Assembly (NCBI GenBank): GCA_030750765.1 | Contig: JASMHM010000004.1 | Coordinates: 3,013-67,012, forward strand | Length of the DNA: 64,000 nt | Direction of reading: 5' to 3' | Source of the DNA: Candidatus Woesearchaeota archaeon | GTDB taxonomy: Archaea; Nanobdellota; Nanobdellia; Woesearchaeales; ARS49 | In this document: one piece after another, positions 5,184-39,416 of the stretch | How positions within the stretch are numbered: the stretch's first letter is position 1 | Layout of the letters: every line of letters starts with the position of its first letter | Translations under genes and position numbers: made by a program | Notes under the pieces: model-generated | What the model was told of the DNA's origin: nothing | What the model saw: only the letters and a program-made list of their open reading frames with translations | Database searches by the model: none

Positions 5184-6917
5184 ATGGATGCAAAGACGCT
5201 GATCAAGAAATACTTGGACTTTTTTGCTAGCAAACAGCACGCCGTCATTCCTAGTGCCAGTCTCATTCCTGAGAACGATCCTACCGTCCTATTCACGACA
5301 GCAGGAATGCATCCTTTAGTGCCCTTCTTACTTGGACAACCTCATCCTCAAGGGAAAAGAATATGTGATGTGCAGAAGTGTATTAGAACAACAGATATAG
5401 AAGAAGTGGGGGATGACACGCATCTTACCTTCTTTGAGATGTTAGGAAATTGGAGTCTAGGCGATTATTTCAAGAAAGAAACCATCGCGTGGAGCTGGGA
5501 GTTTCTAACGAGCAAAGAATGGCTAGGCATACCAAAAGAAAGACTATCCATAACTTGCTTTGCTGGTGATGCGGACGCGCCCAAAGATGAAGAGTCTGCA
5601 GAAGTGTGGCGATCATTAGGAGTGCCAGAAGAAAGAATAGCCTTCCTGCCCAAAGAAGACAATTGGTGGGGGCCAGCAGGCAAAACAGGACCTTGTGGGC
5701 CTGACACTGAGATATTTTATTACAAAAAAGACAATCCTCCACAAAAGTTTGACCCAAAAGATGATAACTGGGTAGAGATCTGGAATAATGTTCTAATGCA
5801 GTTCAACAAGCAAGAGGATGGAGAGCTTAAACCGTTGTCAAAGCCAAGCGTAGACACGGGCATGGGTGTTGAGAGAACTATTGTAGCATTACAAGGGAAG
5901 CAAACCGTCTATGATACTGAGCTTTTCCAACCCATACTAGCCACCATACGTGAGTTAGCAGAAAAGCAAGATCACAAAGCAGAAAGAATCATCGCTGACC
6001 ATATCAGGACTGCAACCTTTGTGCTGGGCGAGGATGCAGGCGTCGTTCCCTCAAACATGGACCAAGGCTACATCCTACGCAGACTTATCCGACGAGCGGT
6101 ACGATATGGCAGGAATCTGGGCATCGACCAAACCTTCTGTCATGTTGTTGCTAGCGTAATAATAAAAGAATACAAAGCGCGCTATCCAGAACTGTTGAAA
6201 AATGAGGGACGCATTGTTGAGGAATTGCAACGAGAAGAGAAACGATTCAAGGAAACACTCGAGCAAGGACTCAAAATCTTTGACAAGGTAGCTACTAAAG
6301 ATATTACAGGGGAACAAGCGTTCTTGTTGTTCCAATCTCATGGCTTTCCCTTAGAATTAACCATGGAACTAGCTAAGGAACGAGGGTTTAGCGTGGATGA
6401 GAAAGGATATCATGAAGCGTTCAAAAAACACCAAAAAGCAAGCAAAGGGGACAAGTTTGCCTCTGGACTGGCAGACCATTCTACCCAGACGGTGAGTTTG
6501 CACACTGCCACGCATCTATTACATGCAGCGTTAAGAAAAATATTTGGTGATGAAGTACAACAAAAAGGAAGCAACATCACACCAGAAAGATTAAGATTTG
6601 ATTTCAGCTTTCCAAGAAAATTAACCCAAGAAGAGAAAGAACAAGTGGAGAAGCAGGTTAATGAGTGGATACAAACAAACACCGACGTCACCAACGAAGA
6701 AATGTCTTTGACTGACGCCAAGAAAGCAGGCGCCATCGCCTTCTTTGGAGAGAAGTACGACGACGCAAAGGTAAGTGTGTATTCTATTCCTGGCATCAGC
6801 AAGGAAGTTTGCACCGGCCCGCATGTCAAGAACACCAAAGACATTGGTGCGTTTAAGATCAAAAAAGAAGAAAGCGTCTCTGCTGGCGTGAGAAGGATAA
6901 AGGCGACGGTTAACTAA
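5184..6917 (+). CDS. alaS: alanyl-tRNA synthetase, short form (catalytic + tRNA-recognition + editing domains, no C-Ala domain)
   Basis: FTTAGM, class II core, TGMGVERT, editing-domain HTATHLLH and CTGPHV motifs. Start placed at MDAKT (5184), 20 bp downstream of GATTATAAAGG. Confidence 0.85.
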   Translation: MDAKTLIKKYLDFFASKQHAVIPSASLIPENDPTVLFTTAGMHPLVPFLLGQPHPQGKRICDVQKCIRTTDIEEVGDDTHLTFFEMLGNWSLGDYFKKETIAWSWEFLTSKEWLGIPKERLSITCFAGDADAPKDEESAEVWRSLGVPEERIAFLPKEDNWWGPAGKTGPCGPDTEIFYYKKDNPPQKFDPKDDNWVEIWNNVLMQFNKQEDGELKPLSKPSVDTGMGVERTIVALQGKQTVYDTELFQPILATIRELAEKQDHKAERIIADHIRTATFVLGEDAGVVPSNMDQGYILRRLIRRAVRYGRNLGIDQTFCHVVASVIIKEYKARYPELLKNEGRIVEELQREEKRFKETLEQGLKIFDKVATKDITGEQAFLLFQSHGFPLELTMELAKERGFSVDEKGYHEAFKKHQKASKGDKFASGLADHSTQTVSLHTATHLLHAALRKIFGDEVQQKGSNITPERLRFDFSFPRKLTQEEKEQVEKQVNEWIQTNTDVTNEEMSLTDAKKAGAIAFFGEKYDDAKVSVYSIPGISKEVCTGPHVKNTKDIGAFKIKKEESVSAGVRRIKATVN

Positions 6918-16548: not shown

Positions 16549-16581
16549 AAGTATTATAAATGCGGAGGTTTCCTTTCCCAC

Positions 16582-16995
16582 ATGGTCTTTACCATAAAGA
16601 AGTTGAAGACGATGTCCCGCTTCGAGCTTGATAGAGTGTGGAAAGGGATAAGCATCCATCGCACACCTCAAGGACGGTTCCGCGGCTACGTCTTAATCCA
16701 TCCTAGTATAATAGGCATGCTGGTGGCAAATCTTTTGGGGAGTTTTTGGCAAGGAAAAGTATTCTTGCCAGGGAAGAGATGCAAAAACATCATTGCAGGT
16801 CAAGAATTCTTCCAAGCACGCACGCCCATGGGGGACAGCTTGTTTGACCACGAACCTTGCTTGCTTTTGGACTACTCCCGTCAGATTATGGGATCTCATT
16901 TGCGGGATGAGATACGACAGATCATCCCTGGACTGTATCTCGGTCGGGTGTACGTGTTTGGCAGGTTTGTAGGGTTCTTCGTCCTCAAAAAATAA
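16582..16995 (+). CDS. hypothetical protein
   Basis: 137-aa ORF. GTATTATAAATG box 20 bp upstream. Confidence 0.5.
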   Translation: MVFTIKKLKTMSRFELDRVWKGISIHRTPQGRFRGYVLIHPSIIGMLVANLLGSFWQGKVFLPGKRCKNIIAGQEFFQARTPMGDSLFDHEPCLLLDYSRQIMGSHLRDEIRQIIPGLYLGRVYVFGRFVGFFVLKK

Positions 16996-17038
16996 TCGCG
17001 CAACCTTTATAATAGACTATAGAGTCATGCTACCTACG

Positions 17039-17109
17039 CGTCGATAGTTCAATGGCAGAATAGCGGCCTTCCAAGCCGCGGATCAGGGTTCGAATCCCTG
17101 TCGACGCAT
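17039..17109 (+). tRNA. tRNA-Gly (anticodon TCC)
   Basis: Hand-folded cloverleaf: acceptor GCGTCGA/TCGACGC, anticodon stem GCGGC/GCCGC with loop CTTCCAA, T-arm CAGGG-TTCGAAT-CCCTG, discriminator A, no encoded CCA. CCTTTATAATAG box 23 bp upstream. Confidence 0.85.
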
Positions 17110-17529
17110 ATGCGCTGGTACGAACGTAAGGGTGCAGGACCAGGGATGTTCTTCGCAGGATTATTCGTTCTCTATCAAGGCCTTTTGGGATTCATTCCCG
17201 CTCATGAACAAATGAAAACAGGCAAGACGCCTGCCGTGGCAGAGCGAACGATTCGCTATCAAAATGGGATCATCAAGATGTCTTCTTGGCCAGGAAGGCA
17301 GGTAGCCTACATCCCCGGCCATATTCGCTTTTGGTTCACCTCTCCTACAGATGAGATGGAGAAAATCGTCAATGCTCCAGAAAGCAATGATCAATTCTTG
17401 AACAACGGTGAGTTCGGCAAGGATCAGTGGAACGCTCCCTCCTTTGGTAGGCATGAGGACGAAAATCTGCAGTGGAAGGACACCGTTCTTCCTCCTTATG
17501 AGGAAAACGTTCAGCAGGAACCGGACTAG
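17110..17529 (+). CDS. hypothetical protein (possible single-TM); start uncertain
   Basis: ORF fills the tRNA-Gly to PIG-L gap. An alternative antisense ORF at 17161-17532 cannot be excluded from sequence alone. Confidence 0.3.
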   Translation: MRWYERKGAGPGMFFAGLFVLYQGLLGFIPAHEQMKTGKTPAVAERTIRYQNGIIKMSSWPGRQVAYIPGHIRFWFTSPTDEMEKIVNAPESNDQFLNNGEFGKDQWNAPSFGRHEDENLQWKDTVLPPYEENVQQEPD

Positions 17530-17562
17530 CACCTTTTTAAACTTCCAGTAGATTCAATCATT

Positions 17563-18195
17563 ATGGTTCATACCTTAGTGATCTGTGCGCATAACGACGA
17601 CCAGATAGTGGGGGCAGGAGGAACGCTGGCAAAAGAAGCAGCACAAGGCAAAAGCTTCAAGACCGTTATTTTTTCGTACGGCGAGTTAAGCCATCCTCAC
17701 CTCAAGCCAGACGTCGTAGTGCAAAAAAGAAAGAAGGAAGGGATCAAAGGAGACCGATTACTGGGCAGCAAATGTACAGGATTCTTGGAATTGCCAGAAG
17801 GAAAGTTTCTAGCTCACGCAACCAAAGCAAAAAGAGCACTTGCTCAGCTAATCCGAAAAGAAAAGCCAAAACGCGTCTTCACCCACTCACCCAACGATCT
17901 GCACAGAGACCACCAAGCGGTTTTTTCCATCGTCCAATCACTAAGAAAATCTAAAGTGCTCACCTGTCCTGTGTACTCCTTCGAGGTATGGACACTACTT
18001 CCGATGAGGCAGAGAAAGCAGCCCAAGTTAGTGGTGGATGTGAGTAACCATTTTCACAAAAAAATGAAGGCATTTTTTGTCCATGAATCACAATTAGGAA
18101 CCATTCTCAGCCTGACGTGGAAGCTCTACATCATGAATCGTATTGATGGTTTGCGCTATGGTTTTAAATTTGCAGAGGTGTTCAGACGAGTATGA
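17563..18195 (+). CDS. PIG-L/LmbE-family N-acetylglucosaminyl deacetylase
   Basis: VICAHNDDQIVGAGGTLAK and HRDHQAV motifs. TTTTTAAAC box at 17535-17543, 20 bp upstream. Confidence 0.8.
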   Translation: MVHTLVICAHNDDQIVGAGGTLAKEAAQGKSFKTVIFSYGELSHPHLKPDVVVQKRKKEGIKGDRLLGSKCTGFLELPEGKFLAHATKAKRALAQLIRKEKPKRVFTHSPNDLHRDHQAVFSIVQSLRKSKVLTCPVYSFEVWTLLPMRQRKQPKLVVDVSNHFHKKMKAFFVHESQLGTILSLTWKLYIMNRIDGLRYGFKFAEVFRRV

Positions 18196-19280
18196 GGTTA
18201 CTTATCGCTTCTGACACCAACAGTCCTAGAGTAGATGGGGTGGCGTGCTTCATCCATAACTTAGAACCGCACCTCAAGCAGTTTCATGTAAAAGTGGTCG
18301 CACCAAATTTTGGAGTGCCCACAAACCAGTATCCAGTTACCAAAACAAAATTGTTAAGGATCCGTTTTGGAGATTTTTATTTCAGCTGGCCTGCATGGGG
18401 ACTCATAAAAGAAATGGTAGCAAAGAGTGACGTGGTATTCGCACAAAGTATCGGTCCGGTGGGCGGGTTGGCGATACTTGCTGCTCACAAGCAAAAAAAG
18501 CCGGTTGTGCTGTACGCTCACGTCATGGATTGGGAGTTGGCAGGCTCGGCAGTGAAAAGATTCAAGGGTCTAACGCGTTTTGTGGTGAAGATTGCTGCAC
18601 GCTGGCTGTACAAGAAGTGCACAAGGATCATCGCGGCAAGCTCCAAAAGCGCAGACATGATAGGAAGTATTGGCGTAGACACGCCAAAAACAGTCATTCC
18701 TCTTGGTATTGATACACAACGCTTCAAACCAAGCGACAAGAACGTTGCAAAGAAAAAACTAGGCTTGCAAGGAAAGCGCGTTATTGGCTTTGTTGGAAGA
18801 TTAGCACATGAGAAAGATCTTCCTACGTTGTATGCTGCGTTCAAGGAAGCACAAAAGAAGGTTCCGAACATGAAGTTGTTAATCGTAGGTACTGGAATCA
18901 CAAACATCCTTCCTGAAGATGATGACGTGCGCTTAGCAGGACCGCAGACAGACATCGTTCCTTACCTACAAGCGATGGACCTGTTCGTTTTGCCTAGTCT
19001 TACGGAAACAAACAGTCTTGCAACCATGGAAGCCATGTCTTGTGCGCTACCTGTTATCGTTACGCCAGTAGGAAGTATAGGGGATTACGTTGTTGAGGCA
19101 AAGAACGGCTTCTTTTTCCCTCGCCAAGACGTCAAGGCGTTGACAGAACTCATGGTTACGTTGTTATCCAGTCCTGCAACCCGGCTGAAGATCGGTAGGG
19201 CTGCTCGAGAGAGTATGGTTCAGGACAGACAGTTCGATAAGACTGCTAAAGAGATCGTTACTGTGTTGAAAGAGGCTTAG
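18192..19280 (+). CDS. GT4-family glycosyltransferase
   Basis: ETNSLATMEAMSCALPVIVTPVGSIGDYV (E-x7-E GT4 signature). 4-nt overlap with the deacetylase gene, so a likely operon. Stop TAG. Confidence 0.85.
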   Translation: MRLLIASDTNSPRVDGVACFIHNLEPHLKQFHVKVVAPNFGVPTNQYPVTKTKLLRIRFGDFYFSWPAWGLIKEMVAKSDVVFAQSIGPVGGLAILAAHKQKKPVVLYAHVMDWELAGSAVKRFKGLTRFVVKIAARWLYKKCTRIIAASSKSADMIGSIGVDTPKTVIPLGIDTQRFKPSDKNVAKKKLGLQGKRVIGFVGRLAHEKDLPTLYAAFKEAQKKVPNMKLLIVGTGITNILPEDDDVRLAGPQTDIVPYLQAMDLFVLPSLTETNSLATMEAMSCALPVIVTPVGSIGDYVVEAKNGFFFPRQDVKALTELMVTLLSSPATRLKIGRAARESMVQDRQFDKTAKEIVTVLKEA

Positions 19281-25716: not shown

Positions 25717-25748
25717 TAAGAATCCCAAGAACCACTCATATTTATAGG

Positions 25749-26057
25749 TTACGTTGAGAAGTACGCCACACAGTACTCTACCGCGCCTCGTTCGTCATCC
25801 ACGCAACTCTTTACCTCGGGGAATGAGCAGAAGTTTACAGGAGCAGCTAAAACATCATTTTCTGCAGCAAAATCTTCATATAATTGTTGTGCGTTGTTCA
25901 CGATGCATTCTCCGTCTATGGTGTCGAAGACTGCAACCTTGTACCCGGTCGTGTTGCCCTGCAGGTTGAAGCCGACAAGGCCTACTGCTAGCAATCCTAC
26001 CACTAAAAGCACGATGCTTGCGTGATGCTCGCTCATACCGCAAACCTCAGTCTCCAA
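25749..26057 (-). CDS. small signal-anchored/secreted protein, hypothetical
   Basis: 102-aa ORF with a hydrophobic N-terminus. Shares a palindromic TATA (TTTTTTAAATCC, about 26074-26085) with the divergent transglutaminase gene. Confidence 0.5.
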   Translation of the reverse strand: METEVCGMSEHHASIVLLVVGLLAVGLVGFNLQGNTTGYKVAVFDTIDGECIVNNAQQLYEDFAAENDVLAAPVNFCSFPEVKSCVDDERGAVEYCVAYFST

Positions 26058-26108: not shown

Positions 26109-28064
26109 ATGAGGTGGTTGTTATTCTTGTTACTCGTGCCAGGCGTCTTTGCCATGGAGGCAGACTTGTTTACGAGAAGCCAGGCAAACATCGACATCAA
26201 CCTTACCGGATCGGTAAGCGTAGAGACCGAAGGCTACGGACGCCTAGACTTTTTGACCGTAGACTTGGCTTTCGTTCCTAAGAATGATGTAGGGCAGTTA
26301 GTGACTTCCTTAGTCCCCAACCGTCCAGCCCAGGTCTTCACGGACAAGATCCAGTACACGTGGGACAATCCGAAAGAGAAGGATTTTGAGTACGGTGCTG
26401 CAGCAAGCGTTCAAACTTCCAGCTTTGGCAAGGTCTACAGCCCTGTGCCTTTTCCTTTTGACATCCGTAAGGTGCCAGTAAAGTTCCGTCAATACCTCAA
26501 ACCTACGGATTTGGTGGACAGCAACCATCCTGCTGTCCAAGAGATCGCACGTGAGTTACGCGAGGGTGAGACAGAGATGTGGAGTTTGGTGAGCAAGAGC
26601 GCCATCTGGGTTAGGGACAACGTACAGTACAATCTTTCCACCCTAAACGTTCCTGCATCAAAATCTTCTTCATGGGTGCTCAGCACCAGAAGTGGGGTGT
26701 GCGCAGAACTCACCACGCTATTTGTGTCGTTAATGAGAAACATGGGCATCCCTGCACGCTTTGTGAGCGGAGTGGCCTACACCAACTCTGATCTCTTCCC
26801 CCTCAAATGGGGCGGTCACGCATGGGCCGAGGTATTCTTCCCTGACTATGGATGGATACCGTTTGACGTCACGTTTGGCGAGTTCGGCTGGATCAATCCA
26901 GGTCATGTAAAAACCTTAACGAGTTTGGATGCTAGCGATCCTAGTACAAGGTTTAAGTGGAGAGGGACAGGAGTCCAACTGCGTCTCAAACCCTTAACCA
27001 TACAAGCAAGCGTTCGCAGCCGCGGACCAAAGGATCCTCCGTTTGTGGATCTAAAAATGAGAGTTGCCAAGAACCAAGTAGGTCCGGGATCCTACAGTCT
27101 TTTAGTGATCGATATCGAAAACAAGCTCAACATCTACCAAACCATAGAGTTAAGCCTTGCTAAAGTGAAAGAACTACGACCCTTAGCAAAGAGCAAGTAC
27201 GCCATCCTTCCTCCTAGAGGCAAGAAAACCGTGTTCTGGGCAGTCCAAGTGTCTGAAGAGCTTCTGAAAGGCTTCCAATACGCCGTACCCTTGTACGTGT
27301 ACACCGCGCATAACGAAACAGTAACTACGACGCTATCTGCCTCAGAAGAAGGCTATGTGTACGGGTTTAATGACATTGCCAAAGAACAAGCCCTATTGAA
27401 AGAAGAGACAGACAAGAAGTTGAGCAGCGACGTGCAGTTCACCTGTATCCCCGAAAAGCCTTTCGTGTACAAGTATGAGACTACATCCGTCAAGTGCACC
27501 TTCATCAATCCCAACCCGCTAGAGGACATGAGCCTGTGCTTGCAACAGTGCGTGCCATGGAAAGGAACACTCATGAGTGTTCCCTTATACTTCACCAAAG
27601 CAGGTTTCCAAGAAATCACTGCCACGTTAAGGGGAGATACGGTGACGAGAAGTGCTCGCATCATGATGGAGATGTTAGACACGCCCGCCATCACCGTGCA
27701 AGACCTCTCACCACCTGCCGAAGTTAAGTTTTCTGAACAAGCAGACTTTGCCTTAACACTTCAAAAAGAAAGCTTTGCCAAGCCAGAAAATGTTAACGTG
27801 GTGCTAAGCTGGTCTGGACATTCCCAAGTGATCGAGATAGAAAAGTTGGGCGTTGATCAACCCTTACTGTTCACGATTCTTGGAGAAAGCTTGAACAGGA
27901 AAAGAACCCTGCTCAACCTAGGTATCACCTGGGAAGACAAGAACGGCAAGCAGTACGAACACAACGACAAATTCTTAGTCCATACTACAGATGTCAAATT
28001 CTACCAACACATCCTCCTTTTCTTCCGCGACTTCTTCAGAAGTGTGGGTGAAGTGTTTAGCTAA
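26109..28064 (+). CDS. secreted transglutaminase-like (Cys-His-Asp) domain protein
   Basis: Signal peptide; core GVCAELTTLF…GGHAWAEVF…DVT transglutaminase-like catalytic triad pattern; 651 aa. Confidence 0.75.
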   Translation: MRWLLFLLLVPGVFAMEADLFTRSQANIDINLTGSVSVETEGYGRLDFLTVDLAFVPKNDVGQLVTSLVPNRPAQVFTDKIQYTWDNPKEKDFEYGAAASVQTSSFGKVYSPVPFPFDIRKVPVKFRQYLKPTDLVDSNHPAVQEIARELREGETEMWSLVSKSAIWVRDNVQYNLSTLNVPASKSSSWVLSTRSGVCAELTTLFVSLMRNMGIPARFVSGVAYTNSDLFPLKWGGHAWAEVFFPDYGWIPFDVTFGEFGWINPGHVKTLTSLDASDPSTRFKWRGTGVQLRLKPLTIQASVRSRGPKDPPFVDLKMRVAKNQVGPGSYSLLVIDIENKLNIYQTIELSLAKVKELRPLAKSKYAILPPRGKKTVFWAVQVSEELLKGFQYAVPLYVYTAHNETVTTTLSASEEGYVYGFNDIAKEQALLKEETDKKLSSDVQFTCIPEKPFVYKYETTSVKCTFINPNPLEDMSLCLQQCVPWKGTLMSVPLYFTKAGFQEITATLRGDTVTRSARIMMEMLDTPAITVQDLSPPAEVKFSEQADFALTLQKESFAKPENVNVVLSWSGHSQVIEIEKLGVDQPLLFTILGESLNRKRTLLNLGITWEDKNGKQYEHNDKFLVHTTDVKFYQHILLFFRDFFRSVGEVFS

Positions 28065-28098
28065 CCAACTTTATAAGTGACGACTGACCCTTCCCTGC

Positions 28099-29424
28099 AT
28101 GGGACTATCTGTGGCCAAGTTTGGAGGCAGCTCACTGTCTACCGAACAAAAAGTTCGTTGGGCAGCAAAAGTTGTGGCGGCAGATGAAGACCGAAGAATA
28201 ACAGTGGTCAGCGCTGCAGGCACGAGCGAAGAACACCAAATAAAACTCACCGACGATTGTTACTCTCTAGCTGCTGAATCTGATACTGTACTAATGACCC
28301 AGAAGACGGGGGCGATTATTGAGCGGTACCAAGCAATCTACCCAGACCAGAAAATGGACAAGATAAAGAAAGATCTAGAGTCGCGTCTGGGTGTTAGCTT
28401 TCCTACTCGCGCCCTCAGAACAGAGGCGATCGCTGCATGGGGAGATGAGGCACAAGCAAAACTGTTTGCGGAATTAACCGGACGGACATATGTTGATCCT
28501 GCTAATTTTTTGAGGGTGGCCGAAGTACGTGGTCGCATCGTTGTACTTCCAAAGAGCTATGATATGATGCAGACGTATTTCCGTGAAGGCTAGTTTGTCG
28601 CGCCAGGATTTTCGGGTCGTACTGAAGATGGAATCATACGGACTCTCGGCAGAAGTGGCTCTGACCGTTCACAGATGGAAATCGGCGCAGGATTAAGCGC
28701 CGAGGTATGTGAAAATTTTACAGACCAACTGGGAGTGTTCACTGCAGATCCCAGAATAATTGAACAAGCCTCACTTATTCCAGTAATAACTTACGATGAG
28801 ATGAGAGACCTTGCCCTGGGAGCGGGTGTCATCCACGCCCAAGCCCTCCACCCTGTAAAAAAGAAAGGCATCCCTGTTCACGTTCGCAGCGCAAGCGAAA
28901 CCAACCGACAAGGAACTCTAATCGTGTATGATCGTCAGGTAGACCCTGAACGGCCTGTTGTAGGTGTGTCATACAAGTCTGGTTATTGTTCGGTGGACGT
29001 CTCCCAAGATGGCATGAACGATGCTGTTGGTGTGTTTGCAGACGTGGCAGGTGTTTTCAAACAGCAAGGAATCTCTATCGAGTTTCCTCCAGCGGGCATT
29101 GATGACTTTTCAATGGTGTTCCATCAGGACCAACGGAAAGGGCCTGAAGCAGTAAATGATCTGTATCGTGCCCTTGCCCGAGATGGATTACTAGAAATGG
29201 ACGACATCGCATTTCAAGAAAACCTCGCCTGTGTGGTGGTGGCAGGTAAAGGACTCAAAGGTAGACAAGGAACTCTTGCTGAGATCATGGGAAAGTTGCG
29301 TGACGAGCAAATCAACGTGCGTTTTGTCTCCCAAGGACCTAAAGAACGATGCATCGTGGTAGGCACGAACGCAGACAAAGGCGTCCAGGCCTTCAAAGCA
29401 CTCCACGCACTCTACCTCGAGTAA
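28099..29424 (+). pseudogene. lysC: aspartate kinase (amino-acid kinase domain + ACT domain) interrupted by an in-frame TAG at 28591-28593; pseudogene, readthrough or sequencing error
   Basis: N-terminal VAKFGGSS. Immediately after the TAG the same frame continues …GFSGRTEDGIIRTLGRSGSD… (aspartokinase signature), then VFTADPR and a C-terminal ACT domain. The two ORF-track pieces (28099-28593, 28675-29424) are in the same frame. Confidence 0.6.
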
Positions 29425-29461
29425 AGGTATCTTTATAAACTTAGTACGCCAAGCTGGCTAC

Positions 29462-31252
29462 ATGAAAGTCGTTCCCGACACTAGCGCATTGATCGAATGC
29501 TACCTCAGTAGGGAGGCGGTCAAGCTAAAGGTGAAAGAGATACTCATACCTGAAGCAGCCCTAGCAGAATTAGAACACCAGGCCAACAATGGAAGAAGTA
29601 CGGGATATGTTGGTGTTGAGGAAGTAAAAAGAATTTATGATATTGCACAGAAAAAAGGCATAGCAATCAAGTATGGCGGAAGAAGACCATCTTCCTTTGA
29701 CATCGACCGAGCAAAAAGTGGGGAAATCGACGCAGCAATACGACAATTAGCGTATGATGAAGACGCAACCCTAGTGACTGGAGATGTAGTACAAGCAAAA
29801 GTGGCAGAAGCCAAAGGCATCAGCGTCATCTTTGTCACCAAAGAAGACAGGTCCAAGAAGTTGTTGTTAGATGAGTACTTCGACAAGGACACCCTGAGCG
29901 TTCACCTACGAGAAATGGTACCGCCAAAAGCTAAGAAAGGAACGCCAGGCAACGTAGACATGGTAGACATCAAGAAAAAACCTTTAACTCATACAGAAGT
30001 CAAAGACGTAGCAAAAGAGCTCATCGAAGAAGCGAGAACCCGACACGGTGCTTTCGTAGAAATAGAAAGGCCAGGCAGCACCATCATAAGTTTAGCAGGT
30101 TATAGAATTGTAGTGTTGAAGCCTCCCTTCTGCGACGGATGGGAAGTCACCGCCGTAAGACCCGTACGCCACCTCTCCTTTGAAGACTACAAACTATCAG
30201 ACAAATTACGAGGAAGAATAGCAGAACAAGCAGAAGGCATCCTTATTGCAGGCGCACCCGGAGAAGGAAAAAGTACCTTTGCCCAAGGGCTAGTAGAAGA
30301 GTACGCCAAACAAAACAAAGTGGTGAAAACAGTAGAAGCGCCAAGAGATTTAGTTTTACCAGACACAATCACACAGATGGCAGCTTCTTTGGGAAGCCCA
30401 GAAGAGTTACACGACATACTACTCCTATCCAGACCAGACTACTCGCTCTTTGACGAGATGAGGAATCCTGCAGACTTCGGATTGTATGCAGACTTACGTC
30501 TAGCAGGAGTAGGAATGATAGGGGTGGTGCACGGCACCAATCCCTTAGATGCCATCCAACGGTTTATCGGAAAGATAGAATTAGGAGTGATACCGCACAT
30601 CATTGACACTGTCGTGTTCATCAAAGGCGGGCAAGTGGCAAAAGCACTCAGCGTCAGCATGCAAGTCAAAGTTCCTTCAGGCATGACAGAAGCAGATCTA
30701 GCACGACCTGTAGTTGTTATAGAAGATCATGAAACAGGGGCGGCGCAAGCAGAAATCTACAAATACGGTGAAGAAACAGTAGTGGTGCCGGTAAGCGCAG
30801 CAGCACAAGGCTCACCCATGGAAGAACTAGCAGCCAACCAAATCCAACAACAACTCCAAAAATATCACGACAACATACGTGTGGAAGTAAGCAATAACAG
30901 AGCAACCGTCTACGCACCATCAGGAATAGTGGGAGACATCATTGGCAGAGAAGGGAAAAACGTACAAAAACTGGAGAAACAAATAGGGATGCGGTTGGAC
31001 ATACGCGAAACCGAACCCACACACGGAGACGCATTATCATACCGACACACTATCGGGCATAAAAACATAGAATTCTTCCTCCAAGGACACCAAGGAAGAA
31101 GAGTAAACATACAAGTAGATGGAGAGTTCGTCGCAGCAGTCGCCATCTCCAGCAAAGGCATCGTACGCATCAAGAAAAACAATGTTTTGGGCAGAACCAT
31201 CATGGACGCACTCAAACACCACGTGGAGATAAGCTTTAACGAAAATGATTAG
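29462..31252 (+). CDS. PIN-domain / PilT-PhoH-like ATPase / KH-domain protein (COG1855-type)
   Basis: N-terminal PIN-like fold, Walker A GAPGEGKST, C-terminal KH (GIVGDIIGREGKNVQKLE). Confidence 0.8.
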   Translation: MKVVPDTSALIECYLSREAVKLKVKEILIPEAALAELEHQANNGRSTGYVGVEEVKRIYDIAQKKGIAIKYGGRRPSSFDIDRAKSGEIDAAIRQLAYDEDATLVTGDVVQAKVAEAKGISVIFVTKEDRSKKLLLDEYFDKDTLSVHLREMVPPKAKKGTPGNVDMVDIKKKPLTHTEVKDVAKELIEEARTRHGAFVEIERPGSTIISLAGYRIVVLKPPFCDGWEVTAVRPVRHLSFEDYKLSDKLRGRIAEQAEGILIAGAPGEGKSTFAQGLVEEYAKQNKVVKTVEAPRDLVLPDTITQMAASLGSPEELHDILLLSRPDYSLFDEMRNPADFGLYADLRLAGVGMIGVVHGTNPLDAIQRFIGKIELGVIPHIIDTVVFIKGGQVAKALSVSMQVKVPSGMTEADLARPVVVIEDHETGAAQAEIYKYGEETVVVPVSAAAQGSPMEELAANQIQQQLQKYHDNIRVEVSNNRATVYAPSGIVGDIIGREGKNVQKLEKQIGMRLDIRETEPTHGDALSYRHTIGHKNIEFFLQGHQGRRVNIQVDGEFVAAVAISSKGIVRIKKNNVLGRTIMDALKHHVEISFNEND

Positions 31253-35179: not shown

Positions 35180-35296
35180 ATGAACGACATCTATGACAGA
35201 TACGACATGGCCATGGAAGACGACGAGGACTCGCCTGAGAACGCTGCTGAACAAGCGTTTATGGTGGGTTGGCTCGCTGCAGACCCCTTTGATTAA
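35180..35296 (+). CDS. candidate 38-aa acidic peptide
   Basis: GGAGGTG Shine-Dalgarno-like element 6 bp upstream. Stop overlaps the next ATG (TAATG). Confidence 0.3.
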   Translation: MNDIYDRYDMAMEDDEDSPENAAEQAFMVGWLAADPFD

Positions 35297-35700
35297 TGTT
35301 TGTTTTTGAATTGGAGGAGCTGGAGCAGCTTTCCGAGACACAGGAGGACCAGTTCTGGTGGTATGAACTGGACTCCCCTGTGGAGCTCGAAACAAGGCAC
35401 ATTCGCATCCAGACCCCTCCTAACATTTTAGTCTTCAAAGGTCCTTACAAACGCTCCTCAGTCCAACAACTGGTCTTCTCCGGCGGTAATGAGCGACAAC
35501 GCAACCAGTTTGTCTGCTCAATTATCCAGCGAGAACACGTTGAAAATGGTATGGTGGTTCTTGAAAAGGTTCCCTTTCTCTCTCTAGAAGACACGCTCAA
35601 GGTCTACAGAAGAATTGTTGGCAAGTCTTATGAAACGGTGAGAACGTCTGATCTAGATGTTATCGATGATGGCTATCCCTGGCCAGATACACGGTCGTAG
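35296..35700 (+). CDS. hypothetical protein (134 aa)
   Basis: ORF translationally coupled to the upstream mini-ORF. Confidence 0.5.
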   Translation: MFVFELEELEQLSETQEDQFWWYELDSPVELETRHIRIQTPPNILVFKGPYKRSSVQQLVFSGGNERQRNQFVCSIIQREHVENGMVVLEKVPFLSLEDTLKVYRRIVGKSYETVRTSDLDVIDDGYPWPDTRS

Positions 35701-35782
35701 AAAGGTTTAAATATCTATTACGTAAAAAGATATCTGAAGGTGGAAAAAAATATTCGACGAGGAGTTGTATTGGAACGGCAAG

Positions 35783-36001
35783 ATGCTTGTATTTACTTGG
35801 CACTTCAAGAAAGAATACGAGGCACTAGGCAAACCCTTAGAGTTTGTGTTAGAAATACTACAACATGGCAAACATCACCTTGTGTCCAAGAGACAGAACA
35901 AGTACAACGTGCTCTTTTCTTACCAAACTCGACATCTTTGTCTATCCTACGTGGAGCACGAGCAAATCATCCTTATCCACCTAAAACCAATTAGAAAATG
36001 A
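35783..36001 (+). CDS. small RelE/ParE- or HigB-like putative toxin (72 aa)
   Basis: MLVFTWHFKKEYEAL…YQTRHLCLSYVEHEQIILIHLKP loosely fits the RelE/ParE fold pattern. AGGTTTAAATATC box upstream. Stop overlaps the next gene's ATG (ATGA). Confidence 0.4.
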   Translation: MLVFTWHFKKEYEALGKPLEFVLEILQHGKHHLVSKRQNKYNVLFSYQTRHLCLSYVEHEQIILIHLKPIRK

Positions 36002-36327
36002 AAAAATTCATCCAAACATGCTACAAATGTGAGGCTAAGGTAAAGGCAGCTACGGTCAACAAAGAAGGAGTGCGGCTTCGCTGTCTCCGCTGTCCAAAGT
36101 GTGGAGAGGAGTATTTCACCTCGAGTGAGCTCATTAAGTATGATATTCTAAAGGGCAAGCGCAGCCTGGTGAGGAAATTCGGCCAGCTTGGTGATTCTGT
36201 AATCATGCGCGTTCCGCAAAAAATACTGAAAGATCTTGGTGTGAAGCCTGGAGACTATGGTGTGTTTGAAGAAAGAAAAGATGGCATCTTTATCAAAACG
36301 TATTCTGCAAAGGAAATAAGGATCTAG
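35998..36327 (+). CDS. zinc-ribbon + SpoVT/AbrB (MazE-like swapped-hairpin) DNA-binding protein; putative antitoxin/regulator
   Basis: CYKCEAK…CLRCPKCGEE zinc ribbon, then RKFGQLGDSVIMRVPQKILKDLGVKPGDYGVFEE (AbrB/MazE signature). Confidence 0.6.
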   Translation: MKKFIQTCYKCEAKVKAATVNKEGVRLRCLRCPKCGEEYFTSSELIKYDILKGKRSLVRKFGQLGDSVIMRVPQKILKDLGVKPGDYGVFEERKDGIFIKTYSAKEIRI

Positions 36328-38256: not shown

Positions 38257-39321
38257 TTATCCGACGGTAGCAAACCCTTCACTCGTCGCTTTCCTCACGT
38301 CAAACGCTTCTGGACCTGCGGCAATCATGCCTTTACTGGTGAATCTTAGTTGGGGCACGGTTACGCCTTCGATGTCTGCAGTCGTAAGCCACTCTTGGAG
38401 GGGTTGGTCTTGCTGCAAGCCTGTGATTATCAGTTTTGCAGCGTCATAAGCTGGCGCTGCACTAGGTCCTGTGGGTGGTTGGCCGTGTTTTTTTGTGAAA
38501 CGCTCAACAAACCCTTTGTGGGCTTCTGTTTCCTTGGGGTACGGGTGGTATACGCCTCCTTGATATGCTAGCTGCCATTCTAGCATGGTTTCGCTCTCTG
38601 TTTGGTGGCCTAAGAAGAGAGGAATATCTAACCCGAGCTCTTGTGCTTGTTTCATGAACGGGAGCAAGGTTTCATCTGACGTAAAGGCAACGTACACAGC
38701 ATCGGCTTGTTCCTTGATCTTTAGCAATATCGTTCTGAAGTCTTGGACTTGGTTGCTGGCAGCAAAGATTTCGAGTTCTTCTGCTGTCTCCTTTTCGAAC
38801 AAATCTTTTTGGAAGGTGGCCCATGTGTTGAGGTTGTACACGACTGCTATGTTGTCATGTCCTTGGCTTGTTACAAAAGAAGATATTTTTTGTACTGCTG
38901 AGATATCGCTATACCACGTCGAGAACAAGTAGGGGTAGTTTACTGTTGCTTCTACTCCTTCGGATATGCTGGGGGAGATCATGACCTTGCCATGTCGTTG
39001 TGCCAAGGGCGCAACAGCTGCGGTGTCTTCATCCCACGTAGGTCCTATGATGGCTGCTACGTTATCTAAGGTGATGAGTTTGGTGGCTGCGGTTACGGCA
39101 ACCGTTTGGGTGGTGTGAGTGTCTTCAGGGATCAACAAGAAATTGCCCCCTTCTGCATTAGCTTCTTCGATGGCTAGTTGTACGCTCTTCAGTTCATCTG
39201 CTCCCCAACTCTCACCTCCTCCAGTAAGCGCAAACAATCCTCCTATCTTTATCGTAGGCTCTGTGGTCATGTGGCCTGTTGCACAAGCCACCAAAAATAA
39301 GAGGAGAAATGCCTGTTTCAT
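38257..39321 (-). CDS. periplasmic-type substrate-binding protein, PBP type 1 (LivJ/branched-chain amino-acid family), solo
   Basis: Signal/lipobox-like N-terminus (LLFLVACATG), IKIGGLFALTG… typical of Leu/Ile/Val-binding proteins. No permease or ATPase nearby. Confidence 0.75.
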   Translation of the reverse strand: MKQAFLLLFLVACATGHMTTEPTIKIGGLFALTGGGESWGADELKSVQLAIEEANAEGGNFLLIPEDTHTTQTVAVTAATKLITLDNVAAIIGPTWDEDTAAVAPLAQRHGKVMISPSISEGVEATVNYPYLFSTWYSDISAVQKISSFVTSQGHDNIAVVYNLNTWATFQKDLFEKETAEELEIFAASNQVQDFRTILLKIKEQADAVYVAFTSDETLLPFMKQAQELGLDIPLFLGHQTESETMLEWQLAYQGGVYHPYPKETEAHKGFVERFTKKHGQPPTGPSAAPAYDAAKLIITGLQQDQPLQEWLTTADIEGVTVPQLRFTSKGMIAAGPEAFDVRKATSEGFATVG

Positions 39322-39416
39322 GTACTGTTGAAGCCACAATACACTTTAATAGATTATTAACCCTGTACAGGGTATAGAACAATAACATTTTTATGTGAGC
39401 AGATTCTAAGAGGGGT

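What the first reader, a model, noticed from the sequence alone, without database searches (positions are those of the whole stretch)
28099..29424. Aspartokinase reading frame interrupted by a single in-frame TAG, with the enzyme signature continuing immediately after it
The frame reads …MMQTYFREG-TAG-FVAPGFSGRTEDGIIRTLGRSGSD…VFTADPRI…, and the C-terminal ACT domain is intact. The kinase N-terminus (VAKFGGSS), the GFxG…TLGRxGSD signature and the ACT domain are all in one frame with no other lesion. TAG is a genuine stop elsewhere in the window (e.g. the GT4 gene at 19278-19280). Possible explanations are a recent pseudogene, a sequencing/assembly error, or programmed readthrough/recoding of this amber codon. 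The GGSD motif is somewhat degenerate (SGSDRS), which leans towards decay.
Basis: seen in the sequence. Interest (0 to 1): 0.6.

Follow-up and report, generated by a model that had tools for sequence, protein, structure and literature searches.

The report
Amber null allele of archaeal aspartokinase
The stop codon inside this aspartate kinase gene is real, but it is an ordinary, very recent knockout mutation (GAG to TAG) carried by roughly half of the assembled sequences of a marine Woesearchaeota population, and nothing points to recoding.

Summary
Frame 28099-29424 (+) encodes a 441-codon aspartate kinase with a single in-frame TAG at 28591-28593 (codon 165) and no other lesion.

It is not an assembly error. 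The same TAG occurs in 17 other public contig records from many projects and assemblers. In 12 otherwise identical records the codon is GAG (Glu).

A syntenic sister species (Ca. Woesearchaeota ARS49, 77% aa identity) has an intact gene with GAG. dN/dS between the two genes is 0.13, both before and after the stop. So the gene was under selection until recently, and the 'degenerate' RSGSD motif is a conserved lineage trait, not decay.

TAG is a normal stop here. It ends 17 of 69 crude ORFs, including CTP synthase, each just after a complete domain. There is no suppressor or Pyl tRNA in the window, no unusual RNA structure downstream, and no in-frame start before ATG 28675. That restart would skip the PGFxG…TLGRxGSD core.

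Best reading: a segregating amber loss-of-function allele, a pseudogene at its first step, in a nearly clonal, cosmopolitan DPANN archaeon. Recoding is not excluded but has no support. Interest is low to modest.

The parts
28070..28076 (+). TTTATAA, an archaeal TATA-box-like element 29 nt upstream of the AK start codon; it implies the gene has its own promoter and a leaderless mRNA
   Evidence: Sequence read. TTTAWA starts 24-36 nt upstream of 19 of 68 crude ORF starts, against 0.8% of random positions, with the peak at 27-31 nt. That it acts as a promoter is inferred.
28099..28590 (+). AK codons 1-164: N-terminal part of the amino-acid-kinase domain (VAKFGGSS nucleotide/substrate loop). This is all that the amber allele can encode from the normal start.
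   Evidence: (AA_kinase profile 4-90).
28591..28593 (+). Amber codon TAG at codon 165; the polymorphic base is 28591 (T here, G = GAG Glu in other contigs and in the sister species)
28594..29424 (+). AK codons 166-441 plus TAA: PGFSG…TLGRSGSD catalytic core, C-lobe of the kinase domain and the ACT regulatory domain. Intact in sequence but stranded behind the stop.
   Evidence: (AA_kinase 135-234, ACT_9).
28675..29424 (+). Residual 249-aa ORF from the first in-frame start after the TAG (Met193), which gene callers report in amber-allele contigs. It lacks residues 165-192 and therefore the PGFxG/TLGRxGSD core.
   Evidence: No ATG/GTG/TTG lies in frame between 28594 and 28674, and no TTTAWA box lies upstream of 28675 (read from the sequence).
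29267..29267 (+). Second polymorphic site of the gene: A (Gln390, here) / G (Arg390, ancestral by the sister species), in the ACT region
27508..27508 (+). Nearby common SNP in the upstream transglutaminase-like gene: A (Asn467, here) / C (Thr467, ancestral)

Best explanation
A single recent G-to-T transversion changed Glu codon 165 (GAG) of a single-copy, previously functional aspartate kinase gene to amber (TAG). This happened in a cosmopolitan, almost clonal marine Woesearchaeota (DPANN) population. The mutant allele is real and heritable. It appears in roughly half of the assembled contigs of this population, with the intact allele in the rest. TAG is read as an ordinary stop, so the amber allele yields only a 164-residue N-terminal fragment. 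That fragment lacks the PGFxG…TLGRxGSD core, the C-lobe and the ACT domain, making this a null allele and a pseudogene at its very first step. Shown: the stop, its recurrence, the ancestral state, past purifying selection, and normal use of TAG as a stop. Inferred: that termination is efficient at this site, that the fragment is inactive, and that the organism tolerates the loss, for example by taking aspartate-family amino acids from a host or the environment.
For: An intact 441-aa protein identical to the window's product except Glu at 165 exists (P0121 = MDP7646624.1, 'aspartate kinase [Candidatus Woesearchaeota archaeon]'); a second intact variant, P0001, also carries Arg390. Across 27 conspecific contigs the 1326-bp gene varies at only two sites, 28591 T/G and 29267 A/G. 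Codon 165 is TAG in 17 distinct fetched records plus the window and GAG in 12; the index lists 18 versus 19 contigs. The records come from TARA, JGI, Logan, ENA megahit/SPAdes and four NCBI assemblies. TARA samples from one pipeline differ in allele. The flanks are 99.9-100% identical over 21 kb, so this is one locus and not a pair of paralogues. Sister species ARS49 (NYZT01000029.1) has a syntenic, intact 441-codon gene with GAG at 165. dN/dS is 0.127 overall, 0.141 before and 0.120 after the stop, with dS about 1.16. TAG ends 17 of 69 crude ORFs. CTP synthase, a GT4 glycosyltransferase, PAC2 and a PD-(D/E)XK nuclease each end at TAG 4-22 residues after their last Pfam domain match. No further lesion exists in any allele, consistent with a very young mutation. 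Other common SNPs in the window are mostly nonsynonymous (5 nonsynonymous, 3 synonymous, 1 intergenic), which fits weak purging of slightly deleterious variants in this population.
Against: No read-level, transcript or protein data were available, so efficient termination at this TAG is assumed and not shown. A null allele in about half of the assemblies, for a gene with a long history of constraint, is not what a strongly deleterious mutation should reach. Either the gene has become dispensable or something compensates. Some records may be re-assemblies of the same raw data, so the contig counts overstate independence. The rest of the genome could not be checked for a second AK, for the downstream pathway or for a suppressor tRNA.
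Confidence: 0.8

Rival explanations
1. Sequencing or assembly error: the true base is G (GAG) and the T is an artefact, for example a sequence-specific Illumina miscall after the GGC that precedes the site.
For: The variable base directly follows GGC. GGC is a motif known from the literature, recalled here from memory, to trigger strand-specific Illumina errors. Contig haplotypes across the three nearby SNPs show all 8 combinations, as expected if the consensus at each site is decided independently.
Against: The T is the consensus in 17 other records from different projects, assemblers and years, while 12 have G. Systematic errors affect a minority of reads on one strand and would rarely win a consensus, let alone in half of all assemblies. 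Samples from the same pipeline (TARA) differ in allele.
Confidence: 0.02
2. The amber codon is decoded by readthrough, a suppressor tRNA or pyrrolysine-type recoding, so full-length aspartate kinase is still made from the TAG allele.
For: The downstream 276 codons are flawless, and the allele has reached high frequency although the gene was constrained. Position 165 is variable among homologues (E, Y, F, V, I, K), so almost any inserted residue would be tolerated. The whole genome was not available to exclude a suppressor.
Against: The flawless downstream frame carries no weight, because the entire 21-kb region is nearly invariant. The stop is not conserved: the sister species and half of the conspecific contigs have GAG. 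TAG terminates 25% of crude ORFs, including conserved housekeeping genes, at the expected ends. No tRNA-CUA or Pyl tRNA is among the 4 tRNAs in the window. The 107 nt after the stop fold no better than shuffles (z = -0.27). The context UAG-UUU-GUC matches no readthrough motif I know of (from memory).
Confidence: 0.05
3. Split or partly retained function: the 164-aa N-fragment, and/or a 249-aa C-fragment restarted at ATG 28675, remain useful. For example the ACT-containing fragment could act like the separately translated beta subunit of alpha2beta2 aspartokinases.
For: Gene callers report both ORFs. In-frame internal starts giving a regulatory beta subunit are established for Bacillus and Corynebacterium lysC (from memory).
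Against: There is no in-frame ATG/GTG/TTG between the TAG and codon 193, so residues 165-192 (PGFSG…TLGRSGSD) would be missing from both pieces. Genes here appear to use TATA boxes about 29 nt upstream of leaderless starts, and none precedes ATG 28675. Met193 lies well inside the kinase domain and not at the ACT boundary. There is no intact alpha subunit in the same cell to regulate.
Confidence: 0.04
4. The allele is a null allele, as in the best explanation, but it is kept at intermediate frequency by selection and not by drift or hitch-hiking. Possible forms are adaptive gene loss in a host-dependent DPANN cell, or frequency-dependent or niche-specific advantage.
For: The allele is present in about half of the records from many samples of an otherwise near-monomorphic population. 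It is seen with both alleles of SNPs 1083 bp upstream and 676 bp downstream. Three common derived nonsynonymous or nonsense changes sit within 1.8 kb around AK, against about one common SNP per 6 kb elsewhere. A periplasmic amino-acid-binding protein gene lies at 38257-39339, suggesting uptake.
Against: Haplotype mixing can be an artefact of consensus assembly of mixed populations. Contig sampling around AK is 3-5 times deeper than elsewhere in the window, which biases SNP detection. No metadata or allele frequencies per sample were available. Drift or hitch-hiking in a recently expanded clone explains the data equally well.
Confidence: 0.2

Closest known systems
Monofunctional aspartate kinase (AAK fold + ACT), e.g. 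Clostridium acetobutylicum aspartokinase PDB 3tvi; NCBIfam TIGR00657 / PRK09034
   Same: Same domain order and length. It aligns end to end (3-436 versus 4-434, E 5e-47). The KFGGSS, PGFxG, TLGRxGSD and ENFTD motifs and the C-terminal ACT domain are present.
   Different: Only 31-41% identical to anything outside its own genus. It scores below the PRK09034 equivalog cut-off (316 against 434). It carries lineage-specific substitutions at near-invariant positions (E116D, RGGSD to RSGSD, Y240L and others; 12 of 63), which are shared with the sister species. It stands alone, without the adjacent asd seen in one relative. In this window it is interrupted by TAG.
Nascent pseudogenes / segregating nonsense polymorphisms in natural microbial populations
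   Same: There is a single inactivating point mutation relative to intact orthologues, no secondary lesions, and the intact allele co-exists in the same population.
   Different: The frequency is unusually high (about half of assemblies) and the spread unusually wide for a null allele of a gene with dN/dS 0.13, against a background with almost no other variation.
Pyrrolysine (UAG) recoding in methanogenic archaea and some bacteria
   Same: Only the superficial feature is shared: an in-frame UAG inside an archaeal enzyme gene.
   Different: The UAG is not conserved in orthologues. TAG is a common stop here. No pylT was found in the window. Aspartate kinase is not a known Pyl protein.
Internal-start beta subunit of alpha2beta2 aspartokinases (Bacillus subtilis AKII, Corynebacterium LysC)
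   Same: A C-terminal, ACT-containing ORF in the same frame as the full gene.
   Different: Here the second ORF arises only because of a nonsense mutation. It starts inside the kinase domain at Met193 and has no recognisable promoter or start signal.

Membership tests
Aspartate kinase (amino acid kinase superfamily with C-terminal ACT) | AA_kinase (PF00696) domain covering the N- and C-lobes | tested here: met
   Profile positions 4-90 match before the TAG (E 2e-5, at the cut-off) and 135-234 after it (E 3e-19). With the codon restored, the NCBIfam aspartate kinase models match in a single stretch across the stop.
Aspartate kinase (amino acid kinase superfamily with C-terminal ACT) | C-terminal ACT regulatory domain | tested here: met
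   ACT_9 E 1e-15; ACT_7 and ACT also match.
Aspartate kinase (amino acid kinase superfamily with C-terminal ACT) | Score above a curated aspartate kinase model cut-off | tested here: inconclusive
   TIGR00657 asp_kinases scores 214.9 against 208.7, so it passes. All equivalog models fail, e.g. PRK09034 at 316 against 434.
Aspartate kinase (amino acid kinase superfamily with C-terminal ACT) | Conserved catalytic and binding motifs (KFGGSS; GE…; PGFxG; TLGRGGSD) | tested here: inconclusive
   KFGGSS, PGFSG and TLGR-SGSD are present. The near-invariant Glu of the GE motif is Asp and GGSD is SGSD. Both changes are conserved in the sister species.
Aspartate kinase (amino acid kinase superfamily with C-terminal ACT) | Phosphorylates aspartate; linked to asd and the downstream pathway | not testable with these tools
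   No asd, hom or dap genes were seen among the window's annotated genes. One 36%-identical relative has asd immediately downstream.
Nascent pseudogene / null allele | Disabling lesion relative to intact, constrained orthologues, with a sense codon as the ancestral state | tested here: met
   GAG occurs in sister species ARS49 and in 12 conspecific records; dN/dS is 0.127.
Nascent pseudogene / null allele | No way to make the full catalytic unit (no restart that retains the core, no second copy) | tested here: inconclusive
   No in-frame start lies before Met193. No second AK was seen in the 64-kb window. The rest of the genome was not checked.
Nascent pseudogene / null allele | Accumulation of further lesions or relaxed constraint | tested here: not met
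   No other stop, frameshift or private substitution occurs in any of 17 TAG records. This means the lesion is very young and does not argue against inactivation.
Pyrrolysine / amber recoding system | tRNA with CUA anticodon (pylT) and pylS/pylBCD | tested here: inconclusive
   None is among the 4 tRNAs of the window (Gly, Met, Ser, Val) or the Rfam hits. None of the Pfam annotations seen for the window's genes is a pyl family. The genome beyond 64 kb was not testable.
Pyrrolysine / amber recoding system | In-frame UAG conserved among orthologues | tested here: not met
   GAG occurs in the sister species and in about half of conspecific contigs. Other residues occupy this position in more distant homologues.
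Pyrrolysine / amber recoding system | TAG rare or ambiguous as a terminator in the genome | tested here: not met
   17 of 69 crude ORFs end in TAG. Four conserved proteins end at TAG 4-22 residues after their last domain match.
Programmed stop-codon readthrough | Stimulatory context or downstream RNA structure, with the stop conserved across relatives | tested here: not met
   Fold z-score is -0.27. The +4 base T is as common at ordinary TAG stops here, 5 of 17. The stop is not conserved.

The most novel reading that the evidence does not exclude
The amber codon is not a dead end. In this DPANN archaeon some UAG codons would be decoded, by a suppressor or near-cognate tRNA or by an unrecognised recoding system, so that the TAG and GAG alleles are functionally near-equivalent. 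That would explain how a 'nonsense' allele of a long-constrained gene reached about half of a global population. A milder novel reading is that the null allele itself is maintained by selection (adaptive or frequency-dependent gene loss in a host-dependent cell).
Probability: 0.05. Interest if true: 0.7.

Novelty: new member of a known kind. Interest (0 to 1): 0.2.

Why it matters
For genome annotation, this locus should be labelled as an aspartate kinase pseudogene or null allele of a polymorphic site. It should not be labelled as two genes, an assembly error or a recoding event. Biologically, it catches gene loss at its first mutational step in a streamlined, probably host-dependent DPANN archaeon. 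The gene was under purifying selection (dN/dS 0.13), yet it is now knocked out in roughly half of the assembled sequences of a globally distributed, nearly clonal population. If read-level data showed that the allele tracks environment or host, it would be a tidy natural example of ongoing reductive evolution. On its own it is an ordinary kind of event.

Tried and rejected
1. Looked for other interrupted frames as a sign of genome-wide TAG recoding. There are 14 same-frame ORF pairs split by one stop. The three plausible ones, at 17527, 35698/35992 and 61405, translate to unrelated or low-quality sequence and correspond to separate called genes or antisense shadows.

2. Tested the 'motif decay' argument. 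P0121 deviates at 12 of 63 near-invariant positions. Other divergent relatives in the same alignment (at least one of them archaeal) deviate at 19, and the deviations are conserved in the sister species, so this was rejected as evidence of decay.

3. Looked for linkage between the AK allele and other SNPs, both within contigs and per sample, to define a TAG sub-lineage. No association was found and all 8 haplotypes of the 3 nearby SNPs occur. This is uninformative, because consensus assembly of mixed populations can scramble phase.

4. Ran two exact-pattern scans of metagenome contigs across the polymorphic site to count alleles independently of gene calling. Both returned nothing, so that collection evidently lacks these records.

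5. Literature searches for Woesearchaeota aspartate kinase, and for nonsense polymorphisms in archaeal metagenomes, gave nothing specific.

6. Considered duplication or paralogy as the source of the two alleles. Rejected because the flanks are the same unique genes at 99.9-100% identity for 10 kb on each side.

7. Considered DGR-type targeted mutagenesis, which is common in DPANN. Rejected because the three SNPs are spread over 1.8 kb in two genes and there is no variable-repeat pattern.

Full report
**Observation.** Frame 28099-29424 (+) reads as one aspartate kinase (AK) of 441 codons. It has a single internal stop, TAG at 28591-28593 (codon 165), and ends at TAA 29422-29424.
- Mechanical ORF listing splits it into 28099-28593 (164 aa) and 28675-29424 (249 aa).
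- Pfam AA_kinase matches profile positions 4-90 before the stop and 135-234 after it, followed by ACT_9.
- With X at codon 165, the NCBIfam aspartate kinase models match in a single stretch across the stop: PRK09034 316 bits, and TIGR00657 214.9 bits against a cut-off of 208.7.
- The restored protein aligns end to end with solved aspartokinase 3tvi.

**Setting.** The window is archaeal.
- Annotated genes include Orc1/Cdc6, aIF5B-like IF-2, SMC, RNase HII, SerRS, a PIN-ATPase-KH protein, and ribosomal proteins S8e and L35Ae.
- GC content is 46.8%.
- The intact form of the protein is deposited as MDP7646624.1, 'aspartate kinase [Candidatus Woesearchaeota archaeon]'.
- A TTTAWA box starts 24-36 nt upstream of 19 of 68 crude ORF starts, against 0.8% of random positions. 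This suggests TATA promoters with leaderless mRNAs.
- AK has TTTATAA at 28070-28076, 29 nt before its ATG, so it looks like a stand-alone transcription unit.

**Is TAG a stop in this genome?** Yes.
- In a crude non-overlapping ORF set, stop usage is TAA 39, TAG 17, TGA 13.
- CTP synthase, a GT4 glycosyltransferase, a PAC2 protein and a PD-(D/E)XK nuclease each end at TAG 4-22 residues after their last Pfam domain match.
- The window's four tRNAs are Gly(TCC), Met, Ser(GCT) and Val(CAC). Neither ARAGORN nor Rfam finds a CUA-anticodon tRNA.
- Other same-frame ORF pairs separated by one stop did not look like interrupted genes when translated.

**The key result: the site is polymorphic.** A protein search with the joined sequence returned a 441-aa protein matching the query at 100% identity over full length, with Glu at position 165. 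So TAG differs from GAG by one base.

The 90% cluster contains four forms:
- two intact forms, P0121 (Gln390) and P0001 (Arg390);
- two 249-aa C-terminal fragments, P0125 (Gln390) and P0122 (Arg390).

Fetching the encoding contigs gave the following:
- 2 + 17 contigs carry the intact gene;
- 13 + 5 carry the split gene;
- 17 carry the 164-aa N-fragment.

Reading the DNA directly, codon 165 is TAG in 17 distinct records besides the window and GAG in 12.

The records come from TARA Oceans samples, several JGI metagenome series, Logan assemblies of SRA runs, ENA megahit and SPAdes assemblies, and four NCBI assemblies. Samples processed by the same pipeline differ in allele: TARA SAMEA2623314 and SAMEA2623390 have TAG, and SAMEA2623295 has GAG. 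An assembly or sequencing artefact is therefore not credible. One caveat is that some records may be re-assemblies of the same raw data.

**How similar are the contigs otherwise?**
- The 1326-bp gene differs only at 28591 (T/G) and 29267 (A/G, Gln/Arg390).
- The 21 kb around it are 99.9-100% identical to the window in the fetched contigs; L016 (99.78%) has a scaffold gap.
- Outside a variable tract near 18.2-18.45 kb, the only other common SNP in this 21 kb is 27508 (A/C, Asn/Thr467 in the upstream transglutaminase-like gene).
- Extending to the rest of the window with two more look-ups found few common SNPs in total: 3 synonymous, 5 nonsynonymous, this one nonsense and 1 intergenic, plus a variable island.
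- The identical unique flanks exclude paralogues as the source of the two alleles.

**Polarity and age.** The one GTDB species representative that encodes a relative is Candidatus Woesearchaeota archaeon isolate ARS49 (NYZT01000029.1).
- It has the same neighbours (SMC and the 651-aa transglutaminase-like gene) and an intact 441-codon AK that is 77% identical, with GAG at codon 165.
- Nei-Gojobori dN/dS between the two genes is 0.127 overall, 0.141 for codons 1-164 and 0.120 for codons 166-441, with dS about 1.16.
- The gene was therefore under clear purifying selection along almost all of the divergence. GAG is ancestral, and the TAG is a very recent derived G-to-T change.
- By the same outgroup, the window carries the derived state at all three nearby SNPs.

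**The 'degenerate motif' argument.**
- The AK deviates from near-invariant residues at 12 of 63 positions, including E116D, RGGSD to RSGSD and Y240L.
- Two other divergent relatives in the alignment (one labelled 'archaeon' at NCBI) deviate at 19 positions.
- The sister species shares GDEAQA, RSGSD, CENFTD and DLALGAG.

These are conserved lineage features and not decay.

**Can the amber allele still give an enzyme?**
- No ATG, GTG or TTG lies in frame between the TAG and ATG 28675 (Met193). Any restart would lose residues 165-192, which include PGFSG…TLGRSGSD.
- No TATA-like box precedes 28675.
- The 107 nt after the stop fold no better than shuffles (z = -0.27).
- The +4 base (T) is as common at ordinary TAG stops here.
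- Position 165 is variable among homologues (E, Y, F, V, I, K). Readthrough would therefore probably be tolerated if it occurred, but nothing indicates that it does.
- The intact downstream frame carries no weight, because the whole region is nearly invariant.

**Interpretation.** The best-supported reading is a segregating amber loss-of-function allele, that is, gene loss caught at its first step. It occurs in a nearly clonal, widely distributed marine DPANN archaeon (confidence about 0.8).

What remains unexplained is why a null allele of a long-constrained gene sits in about half of the assemblies. Three explanations are possible:
- recent dispensability plus drift or hitch-hiking;
- adaptive or frequency-dependent loss (about 0.2 as a sub-hypothesis);
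- compensation by readthrough (about 0.05).

Haplotype data could not discriminate between them. All 8 combinations of the three nearby SNPs occur and there is no per-sample linkage. That could reflect recombination or merely unphased consensus assembly.

**Pathway context.** It is thin. The AK stands alone here and in one relative, while another relative at 36% identity has asd immediately downstream. A periplasmic amino-acid-binding protein gene at 38257-39339 hints at uptake.

**Dead ends.** Two exact-pattern scans of metagenome contigs returned nothing. Literature searches found nothing specific.

**Verdict.** It is a new example of a known kind (a nascent pseudogene or nonsense polymorphism), with modest population-genetic interest and no evidence for recoding.

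Noticed in passing
window 16580-18450; L029 15228-17680; L037 6153-8605: Strain-variable island next to tRNA-Gly(TCC) at 17038-17108. Other conspecific contigs carry a 78%-identical version of the 137-aa gene (16582-16995) and about 2 kb of extra ORFs (58, 450 and 107 aa) before the same tRNA-Gly, all absent from the window. The 5' end of the GT4 gene (18197-18449) has a dense, almost purely synonymous SNP tract in some contigs, which looks like a recombination import.
   Followed up: partly
window 1355-62231 versus loci L001-L043: Contigs from many ocean metagenome projects are 99.7-100% identical to the window over stretches of up to 21 kb. There are only about 10 isolated common SNPs in roughly 60 kb, and most coding ones are nonsynonymous (5 nonsynonymous, 1 nonsense, 3 synonymous). 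This is a nearly clonal, globally spread Woesearchaeota population.
   Followed up: partly
window 27508, 28591, 29267: Three common SNPs lie within 1.8 kb and all change the protein: N467T in the transglutaminase-like gene, and E165* and Q390R in AK. The window carries the derived state at all three, and all 8 haplotype combinations occur among contigs. This could be a local cluster of selected changes, or chance combined with deeper sampling around AK.
   Followed up: partly
window-wide; e.g. 28070-28076 and 29432-29439: TTTAWA boxes start 27-31 nt upstream of many start codons (19 of 68 ORFs against 0.8% background). This points to TATA promoters and mostly leaderless mRNAs in this genome.
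   Followed up: yes
window 35296-36327 (+): Two ORFs (134 aa and 109 aa) lie in one frame and flank a 97-codon stretch that is also open in that frame, with TAGs at 35698 and 35992 as the boundaries. Gene callers instead place a 78-aa gene in another frame in the middle. The middle translation looks non-coding, and none of these ORFs has a Pfam hit.
   Followed up: partly
window 5184-6917 (+): An alanyl-tRNA-synthetase-like protein of only 577 aa (tRNA-synt_2c + tRNA_SAD). This is much shorter than the roughly 900 aa I recall for full-length AlaRS, so it may be a truncated or AlaX-like form (annotations).
   Followed up: no
window 29462-31252 (+): A 596-aa PIN-domain / P-loop ATPase / KH-domain protein sits directly downstream of AK. 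Its TAG stop overlaps the SerRS start region (31245). In L016 it appears split, but only because of a run of N in the scaffold.
   Followed up: partly
L025 1-230 (window 25730-25951): One contig (GCA_002998485.1, PVBE011366907.1) diverges sharply from all others over its first roughly 220 bases. This is probably a chimeric contig end or a recombinant boundary.
   Followed up: no
versus 16/43: A 0.2-1 Mb contig carries the window's flanking proteins, yet it is not listed for either AK fragment or for the intact AK. The likely source contig therefore seems to have this gene called differently or not at all, for example annotated as a pseudogene.
   Followed up: no
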